Origin: Nitrospirota bacterium
Lineage (GTDB): Bacteria > Nitrospirota > UBA9217
Reading direction: 5' to 3'
Assembly (NCBI GenBank): GCA_963754875.1
Contig: CAVWHO010000020.1
Location: 64,001 to 128,000 of the forward strand
Length of the DNA stretch: 64,000 nt
How positions within the stretch are numbered: the first letter of the stretch is position 1; every line of letters begins with the position of its first letter. The translations under genes and the position numbers were made by a program. This document shows, one piece after another, positions 25,887-61,177 of the stretch. The notes beneath the pieces were generated by a model. The model searched no databases. It was not told the DNA's origin and was given only the letters and a program-made list of their open reading frames with translations.

Positions 25887-25918
25887 CGAATCCTAAAATA
25901 GGTTCAGATGACAACAAA

Positions 25919-25993
25919 CGCACCCTAAAGGGTGCGGCTACAAAAAGAAATATCAACATGCTTCGTTTTGGTAGCCGCAGGCTTCAGCCTGCG
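25919..25993. repeat. Inverted pair of GTAG-type REP elements between narG and narH
   Basis: cgcaccctaaagggtgcggctac (25919-25941) and gtagccgcaggcttcagcctgcg (25971-25993). Confidence 0.7.
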
Positions 25994-26034
25994 AGAATAG
26001 CTTACAAGTCAGTGAGGGTTTGAAGGAGTTTCTC

Positions 26035-27524: not shown

Positions 27525-27527
27525 CTC

Positions 27528-28058: not shown

Positions 28059-28062
28059 CCGA

Positions 28063-28668: not shown

Positions 28669-28691
28669 CTCTTAAAAGGAAGGGACCATTC

Positions 28692-39190: not shown

Positions 39191-39720
39191 TGAAATACCC
39201 AGCAGCTCTGCTGCTGGGATGAAAAGGATATCCTGACGAAGTCAGGATGAGAATCTGTTACAATACGGGCCATGAGCCCATTGAGAAGAAGCAAACATAG
39301 CGTCTATGATCTGAAGTACCATTTTGTATGGATACCAAAATATCGAAGGAAGCTGTTCAGCGATCGAATGACGACGAGACTGAAAGAGATATTTCGTGAG
39401 ATCGCAGAGCGATATGAATTTGAAATAGATACGATGGAAGCAATGGATGATCATGTGCATTTGTTTTTGGTTGTGCCACCGAAGTATGCTCCAGCGAGGG
39501 TAGTACAGATAATCAAAAGCATATCGGCAAAGATGATGTTTCGAGAATTCCCCGAGATAAAGAAAAAACTTTGGGGAGGAGAACTCTGGAATGACGGCTA
39601 CTTTGTCCGTTCGGTTGGCGACAAAGTAACGGCTATATTCGGTATCAGCATGATGAGCAAGTTGGCTTTAGGTTCTAGCGCATTTAGGATGCCCCGCAGC
39701 TCTGCTGCGGGGTAATTCAC
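39191..39720 (+). mobile_element. IS200-type insertion sequence
   Basis: Matching subterminal hairpins cccagcagctctgctgctggg and ccccgcagctctgctgcgggg flank tnpA; ends in ttcac. Confidence 0.85.
39272..39715 (+). pseudogene. tnpA: IS200/IS605 Y1 transposase TnpA with damaged C-terminus
   Basis: YHFVWIPKYRR, DHVHL (HUH) and LWNDGYFV present. The YIRYQ helix is out of frame. Confidence 0.8.
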
Positions 39721-41775: not shown

Positions 41776-41908
41776 GCTCTATGGGTGCTGTATGAGAATT
41801 ATAGGTGTAAGTCTTTGAAAGATTGGCGGGAGAGCATGAGAATCGAAATTATGCCTGTGCCTAATTTATCAATGAGTTAAAGACTTATACGGTATGTTCA
41901 CGGTATGA
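41776..41908. repeat. att junction 3: 24-bp tRNA-Sec 3'-end copy (41824-41847) with arm repeats
   Basis: gctctatgg and gctgtatga at 41776 and 41787; tatcaatgagtta at 41867; acggtatgt and acggtatga at 41889 and 41900. Confidence 0.9.
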
Positions 41909-42417
41909 AATTCATTTCCAGATCCACTGACATCACTCCCGCGAAATCCATCCACCCGGTTACCTCAGTATCGTTGCTCTTGTTAGAACTGATAGCAAGA
42001 AAAGCCCCTAAATGTCTGTTCTCATAATATCATTCGGAGCAGTGACTTTTCTTACTTGCCACTTGTACTTATAACGGCAAAAAATCCAGATGCCCAAGCA
42101 TCGACAGTTACACCTGCTACACTCACAAACTCACTGCCTGTCTCCCCTGTAATATATGCCTCGTCGTTCTTTTGCATCTAGTAGAGTCGACCTGTTTATA
42201 CGGGTGGTAGTATGGATATTCCTTGTTCTCCCCATCCACTCTTGCCGCAACTCCGCATGAGGTATTTCCCTGCAATTTTCGCAGCACCATCCCGTGCTTG
42301 CACTCAGAGAGGAGGGGCTGTTCTCCGTGCGCAGTCAGTGTTCGTCCATTTTCCACGAACTTGAAACCCCACATCTTTTGTCTTATCGCGATCTTACCTT
42401 GTCGGTTAAGCGCCATC

Positions 42418-42552
42418 AGAAAAAACCTTTTCACAGTGGAAAACGAAATTGCTTCAATATTTCATTTTGAAAAGAAGGATGTTGCAGTTCCCTCTAGAAC
42501 CTTCAAGATATCAGTTAGTTGAGAATCGCCATGGTCGGGCACACCTATTGCA
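42418..42552 (+). promoter_or_regulatory. Sigma54 promoter with putative upstream activator sites for tcdh
   Basis: GGcacacctattGC (GG-N10-GC, 42538-42551); imperfect palindrome ttttcacagtggaaaa; IHF-like tatcagttagttg. All conserved in a second copy at 56704-56839. Confidence 0.8.
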
Positions 42553-42629
42553 ATATTATGCAAACAGGAACGGCGCTTAACAGGTAGCTTCATCAATTTG
42601 GGTCCAAAAAAAAGGACAAGGAGGTTAAG

Positions 42630-44167
42630 ATGAAAGTAACAAGACGCAATTTATTTAAGCTTGGTATTGCAAGCGCAGTAGCCGGGGTGGTAGCGAAAGT
42701 AGGTTCTCTAAAAGTGGGCCTGTCCTCCAACACAGCTGAGGCCGGCATATTCGGGGACCCTACGTTCCAGGATGTCTACAACCAGATCGGAAAATACATT
42801 CATCTGGTCCCGGGCAAGTTCGCCGGCGGCGTCTCCGCCCATGATATGTCGACCGGTCAATGTCTTGCCTCGATGAATATGAGCATATGGGCCGGGAATA
42901 AAACACCAATCGTTCACCATCTCGCCGCATTCGCTTCTCCAGACCCCTACAAGGAATTCGAGTGGATCGTCGATTCTCAAGGGGGGAAAAACCTGTATAT
43001 CTACGGTGTGACCACACCCGTGAAGGACCCCGCAGAAGGGTTCAATATCTGGAGATGCAATTACGATGGCACCAAGATGAACGTCCTGGAAGACGTTGCG
43101 GAAACTACGGGCATCGGCCTTGGTGTGCACGTCACTGTGGCGCCTGATAACAAACGGTTCTCCGTGTGTGACGGCCAGAAGGACATCATGGCGGTATTCA
43201 AGAAGGGCGAAGGCACGGGTAATTCTACCGTGGAGGCCGCAGTCCTCTTTGACTGGGAGTATAACAATTCGGAACTTTCGCGGGTTTGGTTGGACGGGGG
43301 AACGCTCACTATCAGAAAGCTTCATGCCCCCTACGACCTGAAAGGGACCAAGGGATGCAAGACTGACTGGGAGCTTGTTCCTGGCGGTGAACTTTTCGCT
43401 GAGCAGGGGAAAGTTCCCGGCCCCCGGCTGAAGAACCTCGTCGCTCTCGACTCACTTTGCTGGGATCCGAACCACAAGAACTATGCTATTGCAGCCCTTC
43501 GCCTCCCCGGATGCGGCGTCGTTTTCGATACGACAACGTGGGAACCGAAAGCTATCTGCGTCGGGTCCGATAAGCATGCCAAGCAGGGCTTCCAGGTACC
43601 GGTACAGAAGGTAGGCAACGGGGAATGGAAGGCTGTCTTTAAGAATGTTCCCACGCCGGCACATCAGGCGGGCTTCAGTCCCGACGGAGACCGTTTTATC
43701 CTCATGAACAACAGCCGGGAGAACATTATGGCGGTCTTCGATTCGAGCAATCAGTCAGATCCTACAAGTTGGAGAAGAATTGCAGGAGTCGGCGATCCCA
43801 GCTGGCGCGGCGCCTATCCGAATCCGTTCCATATGGCCTTTACGCCTGACGGCCGAAGATGTACGTGACGCTGTGGTGGCCGTCCCCGAGCACGAACGGC
43901 ATTGCCGCTGTCGACACAAAGACCTGGAAAATTATCAAGACCATAGATATAGGACCGGACACGCACACTATCGCGGTCACCGATGACGGGAAATGGCTGT
44001 TCGGCGTGTTCAGTGGTTATCAGAAGACCAAGACCGGGACCTACGTGGTCCGTGTCAAGGATGACAAATTTTATGGTTATCTGCCGAGCCCTTACGGCAG
44101 CCACGATTCCGTCATCGTACCAAAATCGGTTGCCGGTCTAGCGTTTTCAAGGTGCCCTACCACTTAG
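42630..44167 (+). CDS. tcdh: Thiocyanate dehydrogenase (TcDH), Tat-exported copper beta-propeller; one frameshift near 43855
   Basis: Tat signal TRRNLFK. Motifs recognised from characterised TcDH: PGKF, HHLAAF.SPDPYKEFE, QGGKNL.IYG, GLGVHVT, DGQKD, DWELVPGGE, HQAGFSPDG, GAYPN.FHM.FTPD, WWPSP..NG, GPD.HT, SGYQ, LPSP.G.HD..IVP. Confidence 0.88.
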
Positions 44168-44203
44168 CAAACTGTTCGCGGGCGATCCGCGCGGAATGTC
44201 GAA

Positions 44204-44243
44204 AAACCCCTTGATGGAAGACTAGCTCTCCATCAAGGGGTTT
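44204..44243 (+). terminator. Stem-loop directly after tcdh
   Basis: aaaccccttgatgga / tccatcaaggggttt, 15-bp perfect inverted repeat. Confidence 0.7.
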
Positions 44244-44297
44244 AAGGCCCGATGCACAAGGGCGCGGCCATATACCCGCGACCATGGGAGATTAAAC

Positions 44298-45512
44298 ATG
44301 ATCAGGTCCCTCTTTGGACTTGCTTATCAGAATCTACAGGTGAAACATCTGCGTTTCTACATCATTCTGGTCAGCGTTAGCATAGTCATCGGGGCGTTCT
44401 TTGCAAGTTCTATCCTCATTATGGGGATCAACCACACTCTTAACCAGGGCCTCTCGAAACTCGGGGCCGACCTACTCGTAATTCCCAAGGAATCCCTGGT
44501 AAATCTCAAGTCGGCGCTCCTGACGGGAGAGCCTTCCGCCTTTTATATGGACAGTGCAGTGCTCGACAAGATACGGGTGCTGAAGGGCGTTAAGAAGGTA
44601 TCGGGACAGATTTTTCTGACCAGCGCAACGGGAGATTGCTGCGTCATGGGAAATTCATTTCTCATTGGTTTCAATCCCAAAGATGATTTCACCGTGATGC
44701 CGTGGGTGGACAAGAGCGTAAAGGAACCGTTCCCGCCCGATGGAGCGATTGTCGGCGCAATGACGCCCTGGAATCTGGAGGACGGTCTTAAATTCTACGG
44801 TGTTCGTTTGAAAGTATGGGCCAAGCTCGAACGGACCGGGATCGGATTGTACGATAACGCAGTTTTTTTCAATATCGACCGGGCCTATGAAATGTCCGAG
44901 AAGTCGCAGCGCGATTCATTGGTGAAGCCTCTTGCGCCGCTGAGAAACAGAATATCCGGCGGATTGGTCCAGCTCGACGTAGGGGCAAAAATCCCGTTCA
45001 TCACATTTTCGATCCTGAAGGATAATCCCAGTCTGAAGGTGGTGACCACGGGAAATATCGCGACCTCGGCTCGGCAGACGACGGTAGCCGTATTTTTTGG
45101 CATCGTCGTGCTCATCGTTGTCCTCATTCTGTCCAATGTCCTTATGATTAATGCCATATTCTCCGCTGTTGTGAATGAACGCAAAAGAGAAATCGGCATT
45201 ATCAGGGCTATCGGGGCTACAAAAGCCAATATATTCATGCTCATCCTTTATGAATCGACCCTGATCAGCGTCATCAGCGGCTTTATGGGCATGGTCATCG
45301 GGGGAGTTCTCCTGAAACTGTTCCAACGGTCGATTATCTTTTACCTGAAAATGCTCAACATACCGTTTATGCTGCCGCCCTTCGAAATGATCGCATCAAT
45401 GATGGTGGGAGCGATTGGGGTGGCTCTTATCATGGGGGTAAGCGGGTCGATGTATCCGGCCATCCTCGCTGTGAGGATAGATCCTCACGAAACTATGAAG
45501 CAGGGGTTATGA
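44298..45512 (+). CDS. MacB/FtsX-type ABC permease
   Basis: LGADLLVIP, periplasmic CC pair, ERKREIGIIRAIGA. Confidence 0.88.
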   Translation: MIRSLFGLAYQNLQVKHLRFYIILVSVSIVIGAFFASSILIMGINHTLNQGLSKLGADLLVIPKESLVNLKSALLTGEPSAFYMDSAVLDKIRVLKGVKKVSGQIFLTSATGDCCVMGNSFLIGFNPKDDFTVMPWVDKSVKEPFPPDGAIVGAMTPWNLEDGLKFYGVRLKVWAKLERTGIGLYDNAVFFNIDRAYEMSEKSQRDSLVKPLAPLRNRISGGLVQLDVGAKIPFITFSILKDNPSLKVVTTGNIATSARQTTVAVFFGIVVLIVVLILSNVLMINAIFSAVVNERKREIGIIRAIGATKANIFMLILYESTLISVISGFMGMVIGGVLLKLFQRSIIFYLKMLNIPFMLPPFEMIASMMVGAIGVALIMGVSGSMYPAILAVRIDPHETMKQGL

Positions 45513-45513
45513 C

Positions 45514-46245
45514 ATGGCAGACTTCATTCGGACTCGTGCACTAAAGAAGATCTATTATCTGGGTGATCAGCGAGTTGAGGCCCTGAAGGGCGTCGATCTC
45601 GACATTCCCTCGTCTGATTTCGTGGTCTTTATGGGCCATTCGGGATCAGGTAAGACCACGCTCATCAGCACCATCGGCGGGCTTACGAAACCAACCGAGG
45701 GGACAGTATCAATCGATGGCGTTGACATCTGGAAACTGAACGACCGGGAACTTTCCATCCTGAGGAACCGCAAGATCGGTTTCGTCTTCCAGTCCTTCAG
45801 TCTGCTGTCGACGCTGAACGTCCTCAACAATGTCGTTATGCCTGTGATATTCAACAAGAACGGGGACCGCGATGCGGATGTCGTCCGAGATCGTGCGATA
45901 TCCATCCTCGAGGGTCTCAACATGAAGAAAAAGATCGAGTCATATCCTTCGGAACTGTCGGGGGGGGAACAGCGGCGGGTGGCCATTGCACGTGCGCTCA
46001 TAAACGACCCCGACATTATCCTTGCCGACGAGCCGACCGGCGAGCTCGATATCAGAACGGAGCAGGAGGTCATTGACATCTTCCGGATGATCAACACGCA
46101 ATACAAAAAAACCATAATCGTTGTGAGCCACAGCCTCACCTGGCTCGAATCTGCTAAGACGGTTGTCGTCATGAAGGACGGGTTTTTGTACCGGGATGTG
46201 GCAGATCCCGTTGAGGCCTTGATGGGAAAGATTTGCAAGCCATGA
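45514..46245 (+). CDS. ABC ATPase (LolD-like)
   Basis: GHSGSGKT, LSGGE, ILADEPTG. Confidence 0.92.
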   Translation: MADFIRTRALKKIYYLGDQRVEALKGVDLDIPSSDFVVFMGHSGSGKTTLISTIGGLTKPTEGTVSIDGVDIWKLNDRELSILRNRKIGFVFQSFSLLSTLNVLNNVVMPVIFNKNGDRDADVVRDRAISILEGLNMKKKIESYPSELSGGEQRRVAIARALINDPDIILADEPTGELDIRTEQEVIDIFRMINTQYKKTIIVVSHSLTWLESAKTVVVMKDGFLYRDVADPVEALMGKICKP

Positions 46246-47690
46246 CCATCCTGAAATTCGCGCTACTTGACCTGATGCGCAGGCCGAAAAAGAGCGGGTT
46301 GATCGTTTTTGCGATCGTCATATCCGTTGCGCTCCTGTCTTCGCTTTCGATCGTAAGCACTTCGGCGACGTCAAACATACTGGAAGTGATCTCAAAGACA
46401 GGTCATACGCTGACCGTTCGTCCCGTCATAACCGCCGCTATCGACGAGGCGGACAAGAGTGCACTGCAGAACCTCACCATTTCGGAGGTGGTCTTCGGCA
46501 AATATATACCCGAGTCGGCGGTGCAGGAGATTTCAAGGACATATGACAAGGCAATTCGGGAGGGATGGGAACGGAAAGGCGGGCTGGTCAGCAACCCGGG
46601 AATCCCGGACACGAGCATCGTACCGCCGACCTGGGCGCCCCGGCTCTACGTGAAGGCGGTGGTGGACGGTCATGAGGCTATCGTTACGGGAATCGATATC
46701 ACCAAGGAATATTTCGTCCGTTTCTGGTGGACCTTGTCCAGCGGCGAGTGGCCGAAAAATGTGGATGTCAAGAATGTCGATACGAAGATCGATGCCATGT
46801 ATGTCATGGGGCGCGACGGACAGGTAACCGTGAAGAAGCCGAAATACCGGCTCGATGAACAGGGGAAGACAATATACGATGACAGTCATCATGACAACGC
46901 TACCGGGTCATCAGACGATAAGCTGCGCCATTTTGCCTATGGGCATGGAGCCGCCGATGAGATCAGAAACGATGCCTATCTCGGGGGGGGGTATGCCGCC
47001 GCCAGGAGACTGAAAGTCGGAGATACCATGACGGTTGCATCGCGACAATTCAAGGTCATGGGCGTCCTGGAGGAAACGAACTCCGCCGATGATTATATGG
47101 TCTTTATTCCGTTGTTGACGGCCCAGAAAATGTTTCACAAGGAAGGATATATATCGCTGCTGAGCGTCAGGGCCATGTGCCCTAACTGCCCCGTTGGAGA
47201 CGCCATGGTGGAGTTGAACAAGAACATCACGGGCATTACCGCGGTCTCCCAGCTCGACGTCGCGGGTTTGCAGTTCGACTTTTTTAATATGCTGTATCGC
47301 TTCCTCTTGGCAGTGGTGGTTGCCACCATTGCCGTGGGTATCTTTTCGATCTTCAACATTGTCGCCGGCTCTCTGTACGCGCGGGCGCGGGAGGTCGGCC
47401 TGCTCAAGGCGGTCGGCGCATCGCGTTTTCAGCTTGTCAGGATATTTCTGTACGAACACCTTATAATCGGGATCATTGCGGGGCTCGGCGGATTTGCGGC
47501 GGGTGTCGGCATGGCGCATATCATGAATACGTTCCTCGGTATTGGAGCGGTCGTCCGGGTCGAGGTTGGGGTGCTATGGCACGCACTGGCTCTCGGCATA
47601 ATTTGCAGCCTCCTCGCCATTTATTACCCGGCATATAAACTGTCGGGTATAAAGATCACGGAGACGTTTCGAACCCAGTGGGAGGTTTAG
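46242..47690 (+). CDS. MacB/FtsX-type ABC permease with CxxC motif and His-containing insert
   Basis: MCPNCP, DDSHHDN insert, REVGLLKAVGA. Confidence 0.88.
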   Translation: MTILKFALLDLMRRPKKSGLIVFAIVISVALLSSLSIVSTSATSNILEVISKTGHTLTVRPVITAAIDEADKSALQNLTISEVVFGKYIPESAVQEISRTYDKAIREGWERKGGLVSNPGIPDTSIVPPTWAPRLYVKAVVDGHEAIVTGIDITKEYFVRFWWTLSSGEWPKNVDVKNVDTKIDAMYVMGRDGQVTVKKPKYRLDEQGKTIYDDSHHDNATGSSDDKLRHFAYGHGAADEIRNDAYLGGGYAAARRLKVGDTMTVASRQFKVMGVLEETNSADDYMVFIPLLTAQKMFHKEGYISLLSVRAMCPNCPVGDAMVELNKNITGITAVSQLDVAGLQFDFFNMLYRFLLAVVVATIAVGIFSIFNIVAGSLYARAREVGLLKAVGASRFQLVRIFLYEHLIIGIIAGLGGFAAGVGMAHIMNTFLGIGAVVRVEVGVLWHALALGIICSLLAIYYPAYKLSGIKITETFRTQWEV

Positions 47691-47691
47691 G

Positions 47692-48882
47692 TTGAACTTA
47701 TTGTCGCTCGTGACTAAGGACATCATGCGGAGAAAGGGGAAAAGCGTTTATCTGCTGACCGCCATGCTTATTCCTGTTGTTATTCTCAGTACGATCCTGC
47801 TGACGGTCGACAACGCGGACAGGTCCCTCGCGACCCTCGCCTCGAAATTCGGCTTTACCATGACTGTGCAGCCGAAGAACATCAAGGTCGAGCGGATCGA
47901 TCAGATCGGTGTGGTGATTAATGAGTTCCTGCCGGAGACCGTCATGAAATCAATTGACGAGATTGTCAGGAAAAGGACAGGGAACAAGCAAGAAGCGATT
48001 ATCATCGCGCCGCGGATATACCAGCGGACGGATACCGTGATCCGGAAGTCTTCCGTCAGTACGGTCGTCGCCGGTATCGATTTTCAATCCGAACGAGCGG
48101 CCAAACCGTCCTGGAGTCTGGCGAGCGGGCAATGGCCGACGGGAGAAGGGGAGGCTGTGATAGGCGGGACTTTTGCCCGCGCGAACAATCTCTCGGAGAA
48201 TGCGGTAATCTCGGTGGACGGCAGGGCCTTTACGGTTGCGGGTATCCTTAAAAATTATAACGTCTCCGACGATTATATGGTTTTTGTCCCCTTCAGTGTT
48301 CTCCAGGCCCTTTCCGATAAAAAAGGTTTCTTATCGCTCGTAAATGTGCAGAATGTTTCCCTTGACCGGGATCGGAACCTCCTGCGCGATGTTGTCACTG
48401 AATTGAACAGCACCATTCCCGACGTCAAGACCCTCGTACCTCAGCAGTTTAGCACGATGAAATATGTCTTTCTCAAGAAAACCTTCAAATTTCTCCTTTC
48501 CATCGTTGCGTCAACGGTGTTCATCAGCATATTCGCGATCTTCAATATCGTTACGAGTGTACTCTATTCCCGCATCAGGGAGATTGGCCTGCTGAAGACC
48601 GTGGGTGCCTCGCGGTCGCAGCTGCTTCTCGTTTTTCTCGGCGAGTACTCAGCCATGGGCCTCGCGGCCGGTATCGCGGGTTATCCGATCGGCATGGTGA
48701 TGACCTACGTCCTCGATTCCTTTGTTCTGAACCTTGGCGCAGGCGTCCATTTTAGCCTCTCAGTGTTTCTTGCTGCGATCGCTTCCGGTATTCTCTGCAG
48801 CCTGGTGGCTGGCTTTTACCCAACCTACAAGCTGTCGGGGATAAAAATATCGGACAGCTTCAGATCCCAGTGGGAGGTGTGA
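47692..48882 (+). CDS. MacB/FtsX-type ABC permease (paralog of the preceding gene)
   Basis: REIGLLKTVGA; shared C-terminus YKLSGIKI...FR.QWEV. Confidence 0.88.
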   Translation: MNLLSLVTKDIMRRKGKSVYLLTAMLIPVVILSTILLTVDNADRSLATLASKFGFTMTVQPKNIKVERIDQIGVVINEFLPETVMKSIDEIVRKRTGNKQEAIIIAPRIYQRTDTVIRKSSVSTVVAGIDFQSERAAKPSWSLASGQWPTGEGEAVIGGTFARANNLSENAVISVDGRAFTVAGILKNYNVSDDYMVFVPFSVLQALSDKKGFLSLVNVQNVSLDRDRNLLRDVVTELNSTIPDVKTLVPQQFSTMKYVFLKKTFKFLLSIVASTVFISIFAIFNIVTSVLYSRIREIGLLKTVGASRSQLLLVFLGEYSAMGLAAGIAGYPIGMVMTYVLDSFVLNLGAGVHFSLSVFLAAIASGILCSLVAGFYPTYKLSGIKISDSFRSQWEV

Positions 48883-49607
48883 TTTTGGACAACAACGAAG
48901 GGGAAACATTCCTGGAACTTCGGGATGTCAGCAAGGCATTCAGACTGGCGTCGGGGGAGGTAAAGGCACTCGACGGCGTTTCTCTCAGCATCGGAAGGGG
49001 CACACTGGTCGCACTTGTGGGACCGAGCGGGTCTGGCAAGACCACCCTTCTCAATATCATCGGTGCTCTTGATAAACCGTCCCAGGGGGAGGTGCTGCTG
49101 GAGGGGATCAGGATCGACAGTTTGTCGGAAGAGAAACTGGTCCAGTTCCGCAGAGAGAAGTTCAGCTTTATATTCCAGGACGCAAAACCACTGCGTATGC
49201 TGAACGTGCTCGAAAACACACTGCTCCCTTTCAGCTTTTTCAAACCGAAGCACAGCAGCGGGAGCATAAAGGACACCGGAATAGAGATAATCAAATCCCT
49301 GGGGCTAGGGCATCGGCTTTACCATATGCCGAGCCAGCTAAGCGGCGGAGAGATCCAGCGTGTGGCCATTGCCCGTGCGCTGATAACCCGTCCGGCAGTC
49401 ATCCTTGCCGACGAACCGACTGCCAATCTCGACCGGGATAACCGGCTGTTCGTTATGGAGACCTTTAAACTACTTTCCCGCGAGCGGGGGATAACCATAG
49501 TATTTTCCACCCATGACCTTGAGATAGCTAATAGCTCCGACCGTATCATCCAGATGAAGGACGGCGTGCTGTTAAAGGATGAGTCTCCCTTGTGCCCGGT
49601 CTGTTAG
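48870..49607 (+). CDS. ABC ATPase (LolD-like)
   Basis: GPSGSGKT, LSGGE, ILADEPTA. Confidence 0.92.
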   Translation: MGGVILDNNEGETFLELRDVSKAFRLASGEVKALDGVSLSIGRGTLVALVGPSGSGKTTLLNIIGALDKPSQGEVLLEGIRIDSLSEEKLVQFRREKFSFIFQDAKPLRMLNVLENTLLPFSFFKPKHSSGSIKDTGIEIIKSLGLGHRLYHMPSQLSGGEIQRVAIARALITRPAVILADEPTANLDRDNRLFVMETFKLLSRERGITIVFSTHDLEIANSSDRIIQMKDGVLLKDESPLCPVC

Positions 49608-49643
49608 ATATAAGGGCGTGGCGCCAAAAGAAAGGGTGCAGGC

Positions 49644-50318
49644 ATGAAAAGCAAAACTGATATACTTGCTGCCCTGAAAAGCAGGAAAATGGCTGTTGCG
49701 TTCGTGACGGCAATCGTTGTCCTTCTGCTGGCGGACATCGTTGTCGGACGCTGGCAGGAAAGTATTATCAGGGGAAAAGAGGCAGCGATTAAACGCCTCC
49801 AGGCGCAGGCGTCTCGCATGCTTTCCGTCGATGTTCGCGATATCACCGAAACGGCCGGCATCACTCACACGGGACGTTATGAAGTGCTCATACGGATAGA
49901 CAACGTCGGTGAAGAGCCGGCCTACTTGACGCACCCATCAGTGAAGGCCTACATTCAGACCGGAACCATCTCGTGGACAGAAGTGCCCGTAGCGGAAAAG
50001 GCCGGTGAGAAACAGGAACAGGTATACAAGATCGCAGAAGGTCACCTGCTTTTCAGAAAAATACTTACGGTCTCCCAGCGTTTACCCTACAACAAATACC
50101 TGATCCCGAAGTACATGCATGTGCGGTTCTATATAACCATGGATGTCCTTCCGGAAAGCGGTTTTAAGGAGGGAGAAGTCGTTGAAAGGAAGAGCGATAT
50201 CTACATTTATCTTAAACCCTACTGGATCAGCCGAAGGGAAATCGCTAAGGCGATAGATTTCGGTGACACGAAGATCCCGGTTTATATGCCTATATCGTCG
50301 TTCAGGAACTGGAACTAG
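49644..50318 (+). CDS. Membrane-anchored protein of unknown function (paralog 1)
   Basis: N-terminal TM; AYIQTG..SWTEVP, YMHVR and YLKPY shared with the next gene. Confidence 0.8.
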   Translation: MKSKTDILAALKSRKMAVAFVTAIVVLLLADIVVGRWQESIIRGKEAAIKRLQAQASRMLSVDVRDITETAGITHTGRYEVLIRIDNVGEEPAYLTHPSVKAYIQTGTISWTEVPVAEKAGEKQEQVYKIAEGHLLFRKILTVSQRLPYNKYLIPKYMHVRFYITMDVLPESGFKEGEVVERKSDIYIYLKPYWISRREIAKAIDFGDTKIPVYMPISSFRNWN

Positions 50319-50368
50319 TTGACGTCCCGGCGCGCTCGTTCGGAGTCTGTCGACGGGGGGATTACGAA

Positions 50369-50995
50369 ATGCTCAGAAAAAAGAAACTGATCGCCTCGCT
50401 TATCGGGGTTGTCCTCCTCTTCGTTGTCGCTGATTACCTGGTCGGGCTGAAAGAGACCGCCATCATCAGGGAAAAGGAGGCAAAAAAGGAGCGGCTGGAA
50501 AAAAGGGCCTTCTATCAGATCATGCCCGACGTCGAGGACGCACGGATCATCAAGGGAAAGCCGGGGCAATACGAGATTGTTATCAAGATAGAAAACCTTG
50601 CAGATGAGCCCGTGTATATATCCTATCCGCAAGCGGTTGCGTACGTTCAGACCGGTATGTCCTGGACGGAAGTCCCTGTACGCGAGGGCGAACGAAAAGC
50701 GGAGGAGCAGGTCATCCGTATTGAACCGGGAGTCCATCGTTACCGGAAGATTATCACGATCAGCCGCTCTATAAAATACAGCTATTATCAGATGTTTGGT
50801 TACATGCACGTCCGTGTCCGTCTTTCCCTGTTCGTGCTGCCGGAAAGCGCCTTCAAGGAAGAAGAGGTCGTTGACCGATATTCGGATGCTTATATGTATT
50901 TGAAGCCCTATTACATCACTGACCGGGAGATCGCCCGGCAGGTGAAATTTCCAGACAACAAGATACCCGTTATGATACCGATGCCGCCCCATTAA
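50369..50995 (+). CDS. Membrane-anchored protein of unknown function (paralog 2)
   Basis: N-terminal TM; AYVQTG.SWTEVP, YMHVR, YLKPY. Confidence 0.8.
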   Translation: MLRKKKLIASLIGVVLLFVVADYLVGLKETAIIREKEAKKERLEKRAFYQIMPDVEDARIIKGKPGQYEIVIKIENLADEPVYISYPQAVAYVQTGMSWTEVPVREGERKAEEQVIRIEPGVHRYRKIITISRSIKYSYYQMFGYMHVRVRLSLFVLPESAFKEEEVVDRYSDAYMYLKPYYITDREIARQVKFPDNKIPVMIPMPPH

Positions 50996-51015
50996 GAAAA
51001 AGGAGGGAAAAAACA

Positions 51016-51429
51016 ATGCGTACGGATACGATGTTAAGGTGGACAGGGGTTTTCTCCATCTTGGCAATAAGCGTTTTCCTGATGGCCTTCGAGCAGAAAG
51101 GAATCAATAGCGAACAGGGATTCTACTCGATCGATGTGCAGTGCGCTGCAAATCCGGTGACGGTTGGCAAAAACAACATGACTGTCACGATAAACGATGC
51201 GAAATCCCTGAAGCCCTTCGAAAAAAAGCTGACTGTTGAAGTGATTCCCTGGATGCCAACCCATGAGCACGGCTCGAGTGATATTGCGTCGGTGACATAT
51301 CTCGGGAAGGGACTGTATCGTGTTGAAGGAATTAACTTCACTATGCCGGGGGAGTGGGATGTATACTTCAAGATACGAGACGGAAGCAAAGAAGATTCTG
51401 CGGTTTTCAACGTTAACATTACCCCATGA
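51016..51429 (+). CDS. YtkA/FixH-like exported protein, candidate Cu chaperone
   Basis: Signal peptide; WMPTHEHG and FTMPGEW Met/His motifs. Confidence 0.7.
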   Translation: MRTDTMLRWTGVFSILAISVFLMAFEQKGINSEQGFYSIDVQCAANPVTVGKNNMTVTINDAKSLKPFEKKLTVEVIPWMPTHEHGSSDIASVTYLGKGLYRVEGINFTMPGEWDVYFKIRDGSKEDSAVFNVNITP

Positions 51430-51555
51430 TCGTCGTTCAATGATCTTTCTTCGGCGGCAGGGCGCTATAAAAAAGCGGCATCAGGAACTGGTATTTCATC
51501 ATTCACCGTCCTGCTATATAAAAAAACATTTCTGAAGATAGAGTTCAAAGACGTT

Positions 51556-52077
51556 ATGCCGAACGCCTGTCTGAAAAAAGCAGTACCTATCTGCATGTTT
51601 GTCGCCCTGTGCGCGTATGCTGGAGCCGGATTTGCAGGGAGGATGACCCCGGACCACTTCGCCGCGGAAGTGTCGAACATTACTTATCAGAACAACGACG
51701 AGTACCTTGTGGAAATTACCATAACAAACAGTTCTAATGAAACAGTGGTTCTGGAAGGATATGAGGCGAGTTTTTCCGTACAGAGCGAAATCCTTGGCCA
51801 GTGGATTGAACTTAGCCATCGCGCGGTCGGCGTTCCGGGGCACCCTGCCGGGCTCGCTGCTCTCAGCGGAAAAAAATGGAAGACCACGGAGACCGTAATT
51901 ATACCGTTCGCTGGTCCTCACCTGTTCAGAAACCATGAGGGTGATATGAATTTGCTGTTCCGATATAAGCTCAAATTAACTGGTACCTCATCTTCCCGAG
52001 AAGGTGAAGACGGTGGAGAAAGTGCTTATTGGGTGACGCCGCAAACAGACCGGTGGGTGCTCAGGGAGGGGATGTAG
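51556..52077 (+). CDS. Exported hypothetical protein
   Basis: Signal peptide; Ig-like beta pattern. Confidence 0.7.
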   Translation: MPNACLKKAVPICMFVALCAYAGAGFAGRMTPDHFAAEVSNITYQNNDEYLVEITITNSSNETVVLEGYEASFSVQSEILGQWIELSHRAVGVPGHPAGLAALSGKKWKTTETVIIPFAGPHLFRNHEGDMNLLFRYKLKLTGTSSSREGEDGGESAYWVTPQTDRWVLREGM

Positions 52078-52307
52078 AGGCGACATTCACCATGCCGTTA
52101 GATCTCGTGGTACGAGTGGTGAGTTTGCAGATCAGCGAGCTGGTTTCCCGGACTAAGATCCGGCATATGGCATAATGTGATGATAACTTATCTGGTTTTT
52201 TCAGGGTGCCGTTGTGATATAATATAACGTCAACGAAAGATTAGGAGCGGTTTGCGGTTATGAACGGCAGAAGGGGCGTCAAGAAGGGTCTTCCGAAGGA
52301 AAGGAAA

Positions 52308-52604
52308 ATGAGGCTAAACTGCTGGGAAGTCATGAAGTGCGGAAGGGAACCCGGAGGGAGCAACGTAGCGGCACACGGGATATGCCCTGCCGTGACCTGC
52401 GCAAAGCTTGACAGCGCTCACGGAGGGAAAAATGCGGGCCGTGTGTGCTGGATCGTTGCCGGCACGATGTGTGGTGGAGAGATTCAGGGGAGTTTCGCTC
52501 GAAAATACTCCGACTGCCGGAAATGCAGGTTCTACCAGATGGTAATGGAAGAAGAAGGGCCGAACTTTCATTTAACAATAGACCTTGTAGAGTGGCTCAA
52601 ATAG
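52308..52604 (+). CDS. Small Cys-rich 'two-CW' domain protein
   Basis: NCWE..KCGR, CPA, GRVCW.VAGT.C, C..C.FY. Confidence 0.75.
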   Translation: MRLNCWEVMKCGREPGGSNVAAHGICPAVTCAKLDSAHGGKNAGRVCWIVAGTMCGGEIQGSFARKYSDCRKCRFYQMVMEEEGPNFHLTIDLVEWLK

Positions 52605-52606
52605 GC

Positions 52607-53950
52607 TCATCTAATACCGTATCTATTCATCTTACGCCAGAGCGTCGTTCTGTTGGTTCCCAGTTCTCTGCATACTTTGCCCAGATTGTGGTCGTTCCTT
52701 TCGATGCTTTTCACGATGACATCTTTTTCCCATTCTTCCAGGGTGCCGGGATTTTCCTCTTTGCTCGCGCCGATAGACATGTCAAACAGTTGGTTTGTAA
52801 ACCCGAGCGACAGATCGGGTACTGTTATCACCAGCCCCGTTGCGATTGCTGCAGCACTGGTTATGATGTTCTGCAGTTCACGCACATTCCCGGGGAAGTC
52901 ATATCGGTAAAGAAATTCCAGGGCTTCCGGCGACAGGTCAATATCAGGTTTGCTGTGCGCGACCCTGACGTTTTTCAAAAAATTTTGAGCCAGGACGGGA
53001 ACATCCTCCGGTCGCTCCCTGAGCGGCGGGATGTGGACTTGGGTGACCTTGATTCGGTAATAGAGGTCTTCCCGGAATGTGCCGTTCTCAACGGCCTGTT
53101 CAAGATTCCGGTTCGTGGCGGCGATTATCCTGACATCCACACCCCTGTGTTGGTTCTCACCCACCCGTCGGATAGTTCGGTCCTGCAGAACGTCAAGTAA
53201 CTTTGCCTGCATGGTATACGGCATAGCACAGATCTCATCGAGGAACAGGGTCCCGCCGTTCGCTTCTTCAAATAAACCTTTTCTGTCAAGAATCGCTCCG
53301 GTAAACGCTCCCTTCACATGACCGAACAGCTCGCTTTCCAGCAGGTGTTCTGGGACGGCGGAACAGTTTATGGCCACATACGATTTCCTGCTTCTGCAAC
53401 TGAGGCTGTGCACCGTTTTGGCGACGAGGTTCTTTCCGGTGCCTGTCTCTCCGGATATAAGGACCGTCAGATCCACTTGAGCAATCTTGCGTATCTTGGC
53501 AATCAGCGCTTTTGTTGCATCACTGTATCCAAGGATGGGAATCTCGCTGTCATTTGTCTCATGCAGGGACGTTATCTCGCGTTCCGTCTCTATATGGGTC
53601 AGGGACTTTCTTACCCGGTGAAGTATCTCTTCGTTCTTAAAAGGCTTTACGATATAATCGAAAGCCCCGAGTTTCATGGCCAGGACGGCGGAATCGACCG
53701 TACCGTACCCCGTCATGATGATCACGTCAGCCTGGTGATGTCTTTCGAGGACATAATACAGAACGTCGAGTCCGGTGCCCGGCGACATTTTCAAGTCCGT
53801 AATAACTAGATCAAATTGACCTGAGGCGAGGTGTTCGGCGGCGCGCTTTCCGTTTTTCGCCTCTTCCACCGAATAACCTTCTTTCCGCAAGAGAATCACG
53901 AGGCTCCGTCTCATGCCGTCCTGATCGTCTATTACTAGTATCTTGGCCAT
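52607..53950 (-). CDS. Sigma54-dependent response regulator (NtrC family)
   Basis: Receiver domain, GETGTGK, GAFTGA, PGNVREL, Fis-type HTH. Confidence 0.95.
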   Translation of the reverse strand: MAKILVIDDQDGMRRSLVILLRKEGYSVEEAKNGKRAAEHLASGQFDLVITDLKMSPGTGLDVLYYVLERHHQADVIIMTGYGTVDSAVLAMKLGAFDYIVKPFKNEEILHRVRKSLTHIETEREITSLHETNDSEIPILGYSDATKALIAKIRKIAQVDLTVLISGETGTGKNLVAKTVHSLSCRSRKSYVAINCSAVPEHLLESELFGHVKGAFTGAILDRKGLFEEANGGTLFLDEICAMPYTMQAKLLDVLQDRTIRRVGENQHRGVDVRIIAATNRNLEQAVENGTFREDLYYRIKVTQVHIPPLRERPEDVPVLAQNFLKNVRVAHSKPDIDLSPEALEFLYRYDFPGNVRELQNIITSAAAIATGLVITVPDLSLGFTNQLFDMSIGASKEENPGTLEEWEKDVIVKSIERNDHNLGKVCRELGTNRTTLWRKMNRYGIR

Positions 53951-53988
53951 TTACTCTCCACTTCTGTCCGGCCGCCCACCATTCGCTC

Positions 53989-55733
53989 TCACGCTCGGTC
54001 GCCCTCACATGCGGCCTCAACCGTCTCGGGGGCGGGGAAATTAAGCTGAACATGGGTTCCCTTCCCCGGGGTGCTGGAAAGAAGAACGTACCCGTTGTGT
54101 TCCTTCACGATTTTGTGCACGATATTGAGCCCCAGGCCCAGTCCCGAGTCTTTTGTCGTGAAAAAAGGTTGAAAGGCCTGCGACACGACTTCCGGAGACA
54201 TACCGGCACCGGTATCGGCTATTGAGATCTCCACTTCGTTCTCGGACCGCTTGAACCGTGTTGAAATGGATACTTCTCCTCCTGCCGAAATAGCCTGCCG
54301 GGCGTTGATCAGCAGGTTGAGCAGGATCTGTCTGAATCGGTTCTCTGTCGAGCATCAGCCGGGGCACATCCGGCGCGAAGGAGTGCTCGATCCGGACCTT
54401 CGTCCAGCCTAACTTGTCGCTCCGGAGCAGCGAGATCGTTTCCTGGATGAGCGGGTGGACATCGGTCGCCTCCATCTTCAAGAGCGACGGGCGGGCGAAG
54501 CTTAAGAAATCCTCGGTCATATTGTTGAGCCGGTCCATTTCTTTTTCGACGATCCCGATCAATTCGAGATCGTCGCGGCCTAACGAGCTGTACCGTTTGA
54601 GCGCACCAAGAGAATTGGAGATGGCGCCGAGAGGGTTCCTGATTTCATGTGCCACCATGGCGGCCATTTTGCCCAACGAAGCAAGCTTTTCCGATTCCTT
54701 TAGGTATTTTTGCGTCGTTTTCAGTCGGTCATAAGCATCGCGGATCTCGAAGTTTTTCTGCTCGATCTCCCGGAGGAAGTTAGCCAGCTTAATCTTTGAT
54801 TCATGAAGGCGGTACACGGTGTGGGTGAATCCGTAAACAAGGCCGATGAGTAGACCTGAAGATATCATTACCTTGATGATATGCCAGTACCACCAGAGGG
54901 GATCCCAGAGTTTTGAAAAGGAGAACAACAGCTCACTTTCAAAGAAAAGGAGAGCTGCCGTCCCGAAGATCAGGTAAATGACGTCATTTGTTTTCAAAAA
55001 ACCTTTTACGAAAACGAAGCCTACAAGGAGATACAACATGCCTGCAATGAAATTGACAGCGTAAATCAAATTGCTAAATTGTCCTCGTACCTGGATCGCA
55101 CTCGCACTGTGCGGAGGCCTTATTGACAAGACGTTGGGAATGATCTCGACCATTCTCGTAGCCAGCAGGGCGAGTAGGATGATCAGGACGATCCCCGAGG
55201 CAACGAGACCGCTTCTGGTCCATGATGATTTTGCAGGTTCGCCCATCTTTTTGTTCAGAAAGGTGGAACCCGCGAGGAATACGAGACCCGAAAAAAGCGC
55301 TGCAGGAATGGAACCAGACAAAAGTGTTGTAATCATAATCGGAAAAAGCGTGAAAGATGTCGAGGATGCCGATCGAAAAGAATGCAAAGACTAGCCAGAG
55401 GATGTTTTTCTTCCCCGAAAGCTGGTATTCCCAGGCCAGGATGAATGCTATGATGCCGGAGATGAGTCCGCAGAATAGTTCAAGTGTCGCATGTTTTGAA
55501 GCATCTACAAAGAACAGATTGTTTGCCGCTGGTATGACGAATGGCTCGACGATAGACAAGGAGGCAACAGTAGCCAAGGTGAAAAAAGTGAGGAAAAGAA
55601 GCTTGTTTCGGTTGATCGGGGAGTGACCGCTTTCTACATCATCCAAGCGAAATACCACATACCTGAGCAATGGCTCCTCGTAATTCACGGAGAGCAATTT
55701 CCTCAAATGACTGATTACGCGGTGTATTATCAT
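53989..55733 (-). CDS. Multi-TM sensor histidine kinase (split by two frameshifts)
   Basis: Hydrophobic N-terminus (ORF 55074-55733), AHEIRNPL H-box, D.G.G...PFFTTK..GLGLGL in ORF 53989-54234. Confidence 0.88.
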
Positions 55734-56015
55734 TCCGAAGGTCCTGAAGAGGAATTTGCAAGGATTGCAACCAGAAAAAGTAAACTGCCATCAAACCGGT
55801 ATGACATGGGCGGGCTGCTCTCAAAAGACAGAGCTGTTCTCGGCAACACTGCTTAACTCTGTCCCCATATGTTTAATGTTACACCATATTGCAAAAAAAT
55901 ACTACTGCTGCGGACATATGAAAGAGACGTACTTGAGACTGGACTGAGGTGCGAGGAGGGAAATAACGGTTTGCATTGAAAACTTGTCTTTTATTTTTTC
56001 TCGTTTTTTTGTTTT

Positions 56016-56186
56016 TCAGACTGGCTTGTTTTTGGATTCATCTTCTCCTGAAATGGCTTTCTTAAATGATTTTATACTTTTCCCTAGACCTTCTCCAATT
56101 TCCGGTAGCTTTCCAGGGCCAAAAATTATTAACACGATAAAGAGAATTACGAGCAAATGCATTGGCCGAAAAAGTCCTTCAAACAT
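56016..56186 (-). CDS. tatA: Twin-arginine translocase subunit TatA
   Basis: [39 protein letters not shown] aaggag. Confidence 0.92.
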
Positions 56187-56480
56187 AATTAATTTCTCCT
56201 TTGACATACTACTATTTTTTGACGTTAGAAATACCAATTTGTATATTTGTAAAATATTTGCATAGAAGAACGGTTTCAATTATTAAATGGGTGATATAGG
56301 TAGGCAAGCATAGATTTAGGTCCAGATCTTGCTCGCATGACTGCCGCATAACTTTTATCCTATATCTGAGTTGCCGAGTGCGCGACATCTCCTAGACTGG
56401 CTGCGCAGTTTCTCTAATAAAAATGCGTTATTCATGGCCAATTGATTTCCGAATATTATGAGCAAAAAAAGGCGCAATAC

Positions 56481-56618
56481 TAATGTAGGATCGCCGAATA
56501 TGGTGGTTCCGCGGTTTCGGGTGGCACTCCCACTTTTATAGAACCCGCTTTAGATACCACCCCGGCTACCGTACTAGCAAATGCCAAGTTTGAACAAACT
56601 ACGACTTGTTAAATTCAT
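56481..56618 (-). pseudogene. Degenerate copy of the 5' end (Tat signal region) of tcdh
   Basis: Reads MNLTSRSLFKLGI/ASTVAGVVSKAGSIKVGVPPETAE/TIFGDPT versus tcdh MKVTRRNLFKLGIASAVAGVVAKVGSLKVGLSSNTAEAGIFGDPT; two indels. Confidence 0.8.
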
Positions 56619-56703
56619 TTTAACATCTTTTGTCATTTGTTTGGGGTCACATCCCGATGAAGTTAAATATTAAGCACCTCTTTTCACCTCTTATCAGTTA
56701 CAC

Positions 56704-56839
56704 TGCAAAACGTATGCCCGACCATGCCTGTTTTCAACTAACTGATTCCTTGGAGGTTCTAGATGGAACCGCACAGTCCATCTTTCCAAATTGAAACATT
56801 CAAAGAACGGGGTTTTCCATTGTGAAAAGAGTTTTTTCT
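56704..56839 (-). promoter_or_regulatory. Second copy of the tcdh sigma54 promoter, facing tatA
   Basis: Minus strand reads ttttcacaatggaaaa...tctagaacctccaaggaatcagttagttga...catggtcgGGcatacgttttGC. Confidence 0.8.
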
Positions 56840-57415
56840 TGCACAGACCATCAGTCTAATCCTCGCTACTGCCTACTCATTTACTTTCTGGCTTCTTCTA
56901 AATAATTGGTATTCTTTGATTTAGCTTGCTTTGAGGCACTTCGGTGGATCTTGGAGACGAGTTTCAGTATATGTTCCATGATCTACTAATTTTGCCTGGC
57001 AGGTTTGCTCGCTTCTTATGGTGTTGCTTGCGCAATCATTTATCTCTAAAAAAAATATAGCGCATTGCGTAATGTCCGCCAGTAACATGTGGATATCTGC
57101 CTTGGGGCGGAAACGTGATGACTTTATAGTTAATATAAATTGATATTTATTCCGTCGGAGCAGGCGGCTGCAGAAGGATAGCGATTTACTATGGGACGAG
57201 CGTAAACAATATCATGGCAGCGATGGAATAAACGGCATAGCGGAATGATTTCAGGAAACGGAAACTCGGGCACGGTTTATTATCAAGGGCAATAATCAAT
57301 ATTGGGCTGTCGCTGCGGATATGTAAGTGGACTAGACGGACTGGGAGGAACAAAATAAAGTAGATGCCACGGTATGAGGTTTTAAAACGTATCTATTTGA
57401 AATTAAATGGAAAAT

Positions 57416-57514
57416 TGGCGGGAGAGCATGAGAATCGAACTCACCTCACCGTACTCACGCACGGTGACAGCGGATTTGAAGTCCGGGACGGGCACCAGCT
57501 CCGTAACCTCTCCC
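57416..57514 (-). tRNA. selC: tRNA-Sec (anticodon UCA)
   Basis: CUUCAAA anticodon loop, UGGU D-loop, 9-bp variable arm, GUGAG-UUCGAUU-CUCAU T-arm, GCCA end; near selA/selB. Confidence 0.93.
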
Positions 57515-60957: not shown

Positions 60958-61177
60958 AGTGTTGTCTCTTTCAAATAAAGTATAGCACCTGAAGGGGAGG
61001 GACAAAAGAAGTGAGCATAACGAAGAAGGTTGAATGAACTACTTCACCTACGAGTGTGCAACGATGACTCCTTAAAAATAATTCGATATTCTGGTTGAAT
61101 CATGCATTGTTGAACGCCATGATTCTGAACTGAAAATCATGAAAAAGCTCTCCGAGCTGGCGCTTTTAGTATCTAGA

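What the first reader, a model, noticed from the sequence alone, without database searches (positions are those of the whole stretch)
42418..56839. Copper thiocyanate dehydrogenase cluster on a mobile island in an apparent anaerobe
Seen: a Tat-signal beta-propeller (about 510 aa after repairing one indel) retaining the residues I recall as the trinuclear-Cu/catalytic set of Thioalkalivibrio TcDH: Lys in PGKF, HH, GVH, GGE, ALD, AHQ, PFH, DTH and SHD. It is followed by ABC genes, a sigma54 two-component system and tatA. Established: TcDH oxidises SCN- to cyanate and sulfur and is characterised mainly in sulfur-oxidising Proteobacteria, with similar ABC/tatA neighbours. Inference: this is a divergent TcDH in a Sec-using host with CooS, rubredoxin and a DsrP-like gene, and the att-bounded unit would directly explain horizontal spread of tcdh. 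No cyanase or cytochrome c acceptor gene is in the island.
Basis: partly seen in the sequence, partly recalled or inferred. Interest (0 to 1): 0.85.

Follow-up and report, generated by a model that had tools for sequence, protein, structure and literature searches.

The report
Mobile thiocyanate dehydrogenase cassette in Nitrospirota
A 15.6-kb stretch bounded by copies of the end of a tRNA gene carries a close relative of the copper enzyme thiocyanate dehydrogenase, with all its listed active-site residues and its usual helper genes; it likely lets this Nitrospirota bacterium oxidise thiocyanate and has likely moved recently between genera.

Summary
Observation confirmed, interpretation partly. 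42630-44167 is a true TcDH orthologue: 13 of 13 listed active-site residues are kept, and a model of a 95%-identical orthologue matches pmTcDH at 1.4 A. It heads the usual ABC / hypothetical / sigma54 operon and belongs to a long-stemmed Tat-signal Nitrospirota clade. The one-base break is private to this assembly (four runs and one metagenome contig lack it) and probably an error. The unit 41824-57439 is bounded by tRNA-Sec 3'-end copies with matched arm-like repeats but has no integrase. An independent contig has intact tcdh beside the same att type. The structural genes differ at only 6-15% of silent sites from another genus, against 48-55% for two core genes: recent transfer. The 'anaerobe' premise fails: the host has caa3, cbb3 and cNOR besides dsrAB, aprA and SQR, and CooS, rubredoxin and the DsrP-like gene sit in neighbouring islands. 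The att core was found only in the host's family, so it explains local spread, not spread across phyla. The scan noted Nitrospirota TcDH twice before on other genomes; the vehicle and the transfer evidence are what this locus adds. No activity has been measured.

The parts
41824..41847 (+). Left att core: exact 24-nt copy of the tRNA-Sec 3' end
41889..41907 (+). Paired ACGGTATG arm-like repeats inside the left end; same arrangement at a tRNA-Sec element of G001 and in metagenome loci
42420..42551 (+). tcdh upstream region with conserved enhancer-like boxes and a sigma54 -24/-12 motif (GGCAC-N5-TTGC, 42538-42551)
   Evidence: function inferred
42630..44167 (+). tcdh: Tat-signal thiocyanate dehydrogenase, 512 aa when read through; one base missing at 43855/43856
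44298..45512 (+). FtsX/MacB-type permease 1 (directly after tcdh in nearly all family loci)
45514..46245 (+). LolD-like ABC ATPase 1
46233..47690 (+). FtsX/MacB-type permease 2
47692..48882 (+). FtsX/MacB-type permease 3 (proteobacterial clusters have two permeases)
48870..49607 (+). LolD-like ABC ATPase 2
49644..50318 (+). Membrane-anchored hypothetical protein A, about 30% identical to the hypothetical gene of the Thioalkalivibrio cluster
50369..50995 (+). Membrane-anchored hypothetical protein B, paralogue of A; no family found
51016..51429 (+). YtkA-like protein with a WMPTHEHG motif; candidate copper chaperone
   Evidence: PF13115, E 4e-11; role of YtkA/CtaK from the abstract of PMC13344008; inference
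51556..52077 (+). Exported hypothetical protein C, seen only in Nitrospirota clusters among the loci fetched
52260..52604 (+). Two-CW domain protein (NF045718), seen only in the Tat-signal Nitrospirota clusters
52607..53950 (-). Sigma54-dependent response regulator with GAFTGA motif
53989..55733 (-). MASE3-type sensor histidine kinase, split by two one-base insertions; 594 aa and intact in G081
56016..56186 (-). tatA, 56 aa
56482..56837 (-). Inverted, 73%-identical remnant of the tcdh promoter and first ~45 codons; keeps the sigma54 motif (56705-56718) and points at tatA
   Evidence: promoter part also in contigs of runs X1 and X3
57369..57376 (+). ACGGTATG arm-like motif inside the right end
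57416..57514 (-). tRNA-Sec; its 3' 24 nt form the right att core

Best explanation
[quoted passage not shown] Inferred steps: the sensor kinase and sigma54 regulator would switch on tcdh, and probably tatA through the duplicated promoter. The ABC genes, the YtkA-like protein and chromosomal CopC/CopD would supply or load copper. With no acceptor gene in the unit, the two electrons would pass to a chromosomal c-type cytochrome and on to cbb3 or caa3 oxidase under low oxygen, or to cNOR. The sulfur would enter the host's SQR / DsrE-DsrH-like / DsrABC system; cyanate would be released or break down unaided. The cassette likely entered an att element of the ACGGTA arm type, was integrated by a tyrosine recombinase no longer in the unit, and has exchanged its structural genes recently with another genus of the family.
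For: Shown: 13 of 13 listed active-site residues kept, including the His482 equivalent that the outer homologues replace by Gln. AlphaFold model of the intact 95%-identical orthologue L013: pLDDT 90.4; Foldseek to pmTcDH 8q9x TM 0.88/0.97, rmsd 1.4 A, E 2e-67, against about 1e-11 for NosZ. Tree: Tat-signal Nitrospirota clade 100/100, with the Sec-type Nitrospirota clade (96/94) sister to the clade of the characterised enzymes, 100/100. Same operon as in Thioalkalivibrio, where it is induced by thiocyanate (PMC5744179). Break absent from contigs of runs X1, X3, X4, X5 and from L164; 9 of 85 conserved test genes of this assembly also change frame; private codon changes in tcdh plus permease 1 are 32 silent to 9 replacing. 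Mobility: att cores with matched arm motifs; 1 of 5 metagenome hits to the att-plus-arm pattern carries intact tcdh 1 kb away; silent-site distance to G081, another genus, 0.06-0.15 for tcdh to hypB against 0.48 (selB) and 0.55 (kefC); tcdh in 2 of 15 genomes of the genus and 5 of 64 of the family. Host: caa3, cbb3, cNOR, dsrAB, aprA, SQR, tatC, copCD.
Against: No activity or expression data for any member of this clade; no RNA holder was listed. The clade has a long stem (0.57 changes per column) and about 30 fixed differences from the proteobacterial clade, among them Thr169 to Pro and Thr435 to Pro beside Phe436/His437. The break is a deletion outside a homopolymer, whereas nearly all background breaks of this assembly are one-base insertions, so a real lesion is not excluded; raw reads of the source were not available. 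The kinase gene is also broken twice. No electron acceptor is identified; no cyanase was found in a 90%-complete genome. No integrase in the array and no cognate integrase found in relatives; no circular form seen. The core-gene control for transfer rests on two genes.
Confidence: 0.7

Rival explanations
1. The enzyme family assignment holds, but this strain's copy is a fresh pseudogene: the deletion in tcdh is real.
For: The break is a deletion outside a homopolymer, unlike nearly all background breaks, which are insertions. Island cargo nearby (narG, narH) is broken several times. A decayed second tcdh 5' end lies in the same unit.
Against: 9 of 85 conserved genes of this assembly change frame. 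No stop codons or excess replacements in the structural genes. The two kinase breaks are of the common insertion type. Four runs and L164 have the intact frame.
Confidence: 0.25
2. The enzyme oxidises thiocyanate, but for detoxification or to gain nitrogen rather than to feed respiration.
For: The gene is rare and mobile (5 of 64 family genomes). No dedicated cytochrome in the unit. In G012 a cyanase gene lies 1.1 kb upstream of tcdh. No soxB found.
Against: Cyanase was found in only 1 of the 5 tcdh carriers of the family and not in this genome. The reaction needs a high-potential acceptor anyway, and the host has three such sinks.
Confidence: 0.2
3. The Nitrospirota clade keeps the copper site but has shifted to another small sulfur or selenium anion or thio-compound.
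For: Long stem, fixed changes near the active-site lid and beside His437, extra clade-specific genes, hosts with no known thiocyanate use.
Against: All 13 listed residues plus Tyr164, Pro291 and Phe436 are kept. The whole operon and its regulator are orthologous to the thiocyanate-induced cluster. Cyanase adjoins tcdh in G012.
Confidence: 0.12
4. The att-bounded unit is an immobile relic: the cassette reached this hotspot by homologous exchange between resident islands and no longer excises.
For: No integrase in 65 kb of array. The cassette is a mosaic (silent distance to G081 0.06-0.15 for structural genes, 0.26-0.41 for ytkA to kinase). The spacer between att and cassette differs between the window and L164. 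G012, G071 and G081 hold tcdh away from any att copy.
Against: Both cores are exact 24-nt matches and both ends keep arm motifs of one type. A second strain has tcdh beside the same att type. Other tRNA-Sec elements of the family carry tyrosine integrases that might act in trans. One contig of run X3 joins the left flank straight to the tRNA body, as an empty site would.
Confidence: 0.4

Closest known systems
Thiocyanate dehydrogenase of Pelomicrobium methylotrophicum (pmTcDH; PDB 8q9x, 8q9y, 8z75)
   Same: Best sequence and fold match; all listed ligands and catalytic residues; twin-arginine signal; permease-ATPase genes directly downstream in a Pelomicrobium locus.
   Different: About 55% identity to the modelled orthologue; separate long-stemmed clade; Thr169 to Pro, Thr435 to Pro, Met481 to Thr, His527 to Ser; host is a dsrAB-bearing Nitrospirota bacterium.
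TcDH and gene cluster of Thioalkalivibrio paradoxus / thiocyanoxidans (PDB 5F75; PMC5328954, PMC5744179)
   Same: tcdh, ABC genes, hypothetical genes, sigma54 two-component system and tatA in one cluster.
   Different: Three permeases instead of two; ytkA-like, hypC and two-CW genes added; regulator pair on the opposite strand; no fccAB, no cytochrome c552, no copCD in the unit; cluster sits between tRNA-Sec att copies.
tRNA-integrated genomic islands in tandem arrays (tyrosine-recombinase type; selC islands reviewed in papers seen as search listings only)
   Same: Duplicated tRNA 3' end as att core, flanking arm-like repeats, several units stacked at one tRNA.
   Different: No integrase in this unit or in the other three of the array; cargo is respiratory and metabolic; no transfer genes seen.
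Nitrous oxide reductase NosZ and cd1-type propellers
   Same: Beta-propeller fold, histidine-bound copper in NosZ.
   Different: 11-13% identity, TM 0.40-0.49; no CuA domain; no nosZ found in the genome.

Membership tests
Thiocyanate dehydrogenase (TcDH) | Seven-bladed propeller that superposes on solved TcDH | tested here: met
   Model of the 95%-identical intact orthologue L013, rmsd 1.4 A, TM 0.97 by target; the window's own protein was not folded.
Thiocyanate dehydrogenase (TcDH) | 13 active-site residues K103, H135, H136, Q156, H206, E288, D314, H381, H437, H482, H528, D529, R544 (PMC6504805, Fig. 4 legend) | tested here: met
   13 of 13; outer homologues have Gln at 482.
Thiocyanate dehydrogenase (TcDH) | Twin-arginine export signal and a Tat system | tested here: met
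   TRRNLFK at residues 4-10; tatA in the unit, tatC elsewhere.
Thiocyanate dehydrogenase (TcDH) | Groups with the characterised enzymes, apart from the His482-to-Gln homologues | tested here: met
   Sister to, not inside, the proteobacterial clade; 100/100 for the joint clade (rooted on the Gln482 group).
Thiocyanate dehydrogenase (TcDH) | ABC / hypothetical / sigma54 two-component gene cluster | tested here: met
Thiocyanate dehydrogenase (TcDH) | Intact reading frame in this genome | tested here: inconclusive
   Broken in the assembly, intact in close strains; error type atypical.
Thiocyanate dehydrogenase (TcDH) | Binds three Cu and oxidises SCN- to cyanate and sulfur | not testable with these tools
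   Needs enzyme assay.
tRNA-integrated genomic island | Intact tRNA at one end, copy of its 3' end at the other | tested here: met
tRNA-integrated genomic island | Own integrase gene | tested here: not met
   14 PF00589 matches in the genome, none at C20 56-121 kb; no open frame or remnant in the end spacers.
tRNA-integrated genomic island | Absent from the same site in relatives | tested here: met
   tRNA-Sec of relatives is empty or holds other cargo; tcdh in 2 of 15 genomes of the genus.
tRNA-integrated genomic island | Excision or circular form | tested here: inconclusive
   No circular joint in contigs of four runs; one empty-site-like contig.
Strict anaerobe host | No oxygen-reducing terminal oxidase | tested here: not met
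   caa3 and cbb3 gene sets.

The most novel reading that the evidence does not exclude
Sulfite-reductase-bearing Nitrospirota of wetlands and soils run the TcDH (cyanate) pathway without oxygen, passing electrons through periplasmic cytochromes to NO reductase during nitrate respiration, and trade this ability as an integrase-free cassette at tRNA-Sec. That would be the first anoxic use of TcDH, described as oxygen-dependent in vivo (PMC5744179), and the first identified vehicle for tcdh.
Probability: 0.2. Interest if true: 0.8.

Novelty: new member of a known kind. Interest (0 to 1): 0.52.

Why it matters
TcDH has been studied in a few aerobic sulfur oxidisers of soda lakes, brines and reactors. 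A conserved clade of about 20 sequence clusters in dsrAB-bearing Nitrospirota, with near-identical strains in wetland, soil and peat runs, points to thiocyanate turnover in low-oxygen freshwater habitats by organisms filed as sulfate or sulfur respirers. The locus shows how the operon moves within a family (att element, recent exchange between genera). It also offers an intact orthologue for testing the enzyme with other second-shell residues, without its known acceptors, and a candidate copper chaperone (YtkA-like).

Tried and rejected
Pfam and NCBIfam have no model for the propeller. No RNA holder listed: says nothing on expression. No served run holds the source strain (best share 0.34), so the break could not be checked on raw reads; run X2 does not cover the site. 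Search for the cognate integrase led nowhere: the integrase-like gene in the G001 element with the same arms belongs to an IS91-type pair; the att core had 0 matches in viral contigs. L164's left flank does not match the window's right end, so it is not a circle of this unit. The joint 48395 to 57408 in run X3 (side 30) was set aside as unreliable. The 76-aa frame after dsrB fits dsrD by place but matched no family (the control rang nowhere), so the direction of Dsr is left open. The 'stop in dsrA' in my note is only the gene's end. soxB, nrfA, nosZ, cynS not found in the 90%-complete genome; PF02239 gave one weak match, no clear nirS, nirK was not searched. Atlas searches for hypB and hypC gave only unnamed clusters. 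The sigma70 and terminator scan was at chance level; the sigma54 pattern count alone (3 against 1.3 expected) is not significant, its weight comes from position and conservation. The arm-motif test used a motif picked after seeing the data. NosZ or cd1 identity rejected. No complex prediction was run.
Full report
1. The gene. Two overlapping frames, 42630-43868 and 43859-44167, match solved thiocyanate dehydrogenases end to end: best chain 8q9x, E 1e-130 and 1.8e-38. Read through with X at the break the protein has 512 aa, like its closest relatives. PMC6504805 (passages read, Fig. 4 legend) lists 13 active-site residues of 5F75. I mapped them through the 548-aa Thioalkalivibrio thiocyanoxidans sequence of L033, after checking the numbering by hand on the 5F75 alignment. 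All 13 are kept: K63, H96, H97, Q117, H167, E248, D274, H345, H401, H446, H492, D493, R508. Second-shell differences: Thr169 to Pro, Thr435 to Pro, Met481 to Thr, His527 to Ser. An AlphaFold model of the intact 95%-identical orthologue L013 (75-row alignment, pLDDT 90.4) matches pmTcDH at rmsd 1.4 A and TM 0.97 by target; ranks 1-20 are all TcDH chains, and NosZ follows at E about 1e-11.

2. The clade. The protein search gave 465 hits among 7996 scored candidates; the top 20 clusters are 69-83% identical, then identity drops to 57%. The genome scan returned 44 loci; the 13 full-length ones at 71-87% identity to the query are all titled Nitrospirota. In a careful tree of 40 rows, chosen from the 87 of the quick tree to cut near-duplicates, the Tat-signal Nitrospirota clade has support 100/100 and a stem of 0.57. 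It joins a Nitrospirota clade whose named members lack the twin arginines (96/94), and both are sister to the clade holding Thioalkalivibrio and Pelomicrobium (rooted on the group with Gln at 482). The gene is therefore old in Nitrospirota, not a fresh import from Proteobacteria. It is rare: 2 of 15 genomes of the genus, 5 of 64 of the family, 10 of 401 in a phylum sample (three candidates scored per genome). Named loci and handles come from one collection and overlap, so I do not add them.

3. The operon. Permease, ATPase, two permeases, ATPase, two paralogous anchored proteins, a YtkA-like protein, an exported protein and a two-CW protein follow tcdh; a sigma54 regulator, a sensor kinase and tatA face them. 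Most of this order is kept in the clade's loci as far as they reach. It corresponds to the Thioalkalivibrio cluster (PMC5328954, passages), which is induced on thiocyanate (PMC5744179, passages). A sigma54 motif lies at 42538-42551 and is conserved in seven aligned upstream regions. An inverted 73%-identical copy of this promoter and the first 45 or so codons lies at 56482-56837 and points at tatA. In run X3 the promoter part is kept (3 differences in 106 nt) while the next 300 nt are replaced, which suggests the promoter copy is useful. YtkA/CtaK is implicated in CuA assembly in Bacillus (PMC13344008, abstract only), so the YtkA-like gene is a candidate copper chaperone; copC and copD are elsewhere in the genome.

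4. The break. Contigs of runs X1, X3, X4 and X5 carry one more base at 43855 (five runs laid, X2 does not cover the site), as does L164. These are other strains at about 95-96% identity, not the source. Of 200 long frames from 400 kb of G001, 85 passed the identity and coverage filter; 9 of these change frame in this assembly and 5 more show a stop. Private codon changes in tcdh plus permease 1 are 32 silent and 9 replacing, against 51/13 and 27/14 in two intact relatives. Against this, the background breaks are nearly all one-base insertions, as are the two in the kinase, while the tcdh break is a deletion outside a homopolymer. I put assembly error at about 70-75%.

5. The island. tRNA-Sec lies at c57416-57514. 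Its 3' 24 nt recur exactly at 41824 and 29571, and with changes at 9096 and 7.6 kb left of the window: four stacked units. The TcDH unit has ACGGTATG motifs inside both ends; the CooS unit has a different GCTGTAT type at both of its ends. Six such motifs fall in the eight 100-nt flanks against 0.02 expected (0 of 20000 draws; motif chosen after inspection). None of the genome's 14 integrase matches lies in the array. Relatives use the same tRNA as a hotspot, some with tyrosine integrases, but I found no integrase tied to this arm type. A metagenome scan using only the att-plus-arm pattern gave 5 loci; one, L164, has an intact 512-aa tcdh, 98% identical, 1 kb from the core, with a different spacer. 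So the link between tcdh and this att type exists in a second strain. In G012, G071 and G081 tcdh is not beside an att copy, and none of 13 named clade loci has the core in the DNA fetched. The core was found in 22 of 24 genomes of the family and 0 of 16 outside it.

6. Transfer. Against G081, of another genus, fourfold-site distance is 0.06-0.15 for tcdh to hypB, 0.26-0.41 for ytkA to kinase, and 0.48 and 0.55 for selB and kefC. Against G012, of the same genus, tcdh is at 0.37-0.45 and selB at 0.56. The structural block was thus exchanged recently across genera, and the cassette is a mosaic. The control is only two core genes.

7. The host. It has dsrA and dsrB over the cut-offs, dsrC, DsrE- and DsrH-like genes, aprA and an SQR, and also caa3, cbb3 and cNOR with a dihaem NorC; narGHJI sits, frameshifted, in a neighbouring unit. 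Ten of ten family genomes tested have heme-copper oxidase family genes. CooS, rubredoxin and the DsrP-like gene lie in other att units and say little about the core lifestyle. A related organism, Ca. Nitrobium versatile, was inferred to oxidise sulfide with reductive-type Dsr and cNOR (PMC8906906, passages). cynS was not found here; it is in 7 of 64 family genomes and in 1 of the 5 tcdh carriers, G012, where it lies 1.1 kb upstream of tcdh. Cyanase is not a marker of this pathway (PMC6504805). The acceptor is open: Thioalkalivibrio uses a cytochrome c552 encoded near the operon (PMC9456337, passages); this unit has none, while the genome has many c-type cytochromes.

8. Mechanism. Shown: family membership by sequence, fold and gene order; att-bounded, integrase-free structure; recent transfer. 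Inferred: Tat export, copper loading, SCN- oxidation, electron flow to cbb3, caa3 or cNOR, sulfur hand-over to the SQR/Dsr system, integration by a recombinase in trans. In vivo the pathway is described as aerobic (PMC5744179; PMC5778177, passages); the host's oxidases make low-oxygen use the plain reading, and NO-coupled use the bold one.

9. Novelty. I found no paper on TcDH in Nitrospirota: 'Thermodesulfovibrionia' with 'thiocyanate' gave 0; 'Nitrospirota' with 'TcDH' gave 3 listed, of which one places tcdh in a Thiohalobacteraceae genome, one names it as a bulk function and one was seen as a listing only. The primary structural papers on TpTcDH and pmTcDH (recalled) did not come up in the library and may show such homologues in trees or supplements that I could not see. 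The scan has noted Nitrospirota TcDH on two other genomes and this tandem array in another reading. Verdict: a new member of a known enzyme family in an unstudied clade, with real evidence for a mobile vehicle and recent transfer inside one family. Interest 0.52.

Noticed in passing
window 9043-57514 and G000:C20:56424: Four stacked att-bounded units at tRNA-Sec, none with an integrase; two arm types (ACGGTA and GCTGTAT) pair up at the ends of single units. Cargo includes Nar, CooS, rubredoxin, a DsrP-like fragment and a cyclic glucan phosphorylase-like gene.
   Followed up: partly
window 21357-29417: Cytochrome c plus narGHJI operon with several frameshifts in 8 kb, more than the background rate of about 0.12 per kb; poor polishing or real decay.
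   Followed up: no
window 57679-61005: KefC-like and MFS genes right of the tRNA also change frame; selB follows at 61852-63753.
   Followed up: partly
G000 whole assembly: Background breaks are nearly all single-base insertions outside homopolymers; about one conserved gene in ten is split.
   Followed up: yes
L136:13672-15563: In G081 a rhodanese-like gene and an ExtKL-like multihaem cytochrome follow the kinase: candidate sulfur carrier and acceptor, not found beside tcdh in this genome.
   Followed up: partly
L019:7390-9691: Beta-carbonic-anhydrase-like, DsrE-like and metallo-hydrolase genes directly upstream of tcdh in one clade member.
   Followed up: no
L016:16722-18179, L017:15907-17439: NosL-domain genes inserted in the tcdh operon of two clade members, again pointing to copper delivery.
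   Followed up: no
L041, L043-L048, P0070, P0081, P0086-P0114: A broad outer group (Planctomycetota, Alphaproteobacteria and unnamed) has Gln in place of the His482 copper ligand, the change made in the 6sji and 8yu5 mutants; its function is open.
   Followed up: partly
L038, L039, L042: Sister Nitrospirota clade with a plain Sec-type signal instead of twin arginines.
   Followed up: partly
G000 C3, C4, C10, C13, C19, C20: Nine tatA/tatB-like matches in the genome.
   Followed up: no
window 39195-39715: IS200-type transposase between short direct repeats in the CooS unit.
   Followed up: no
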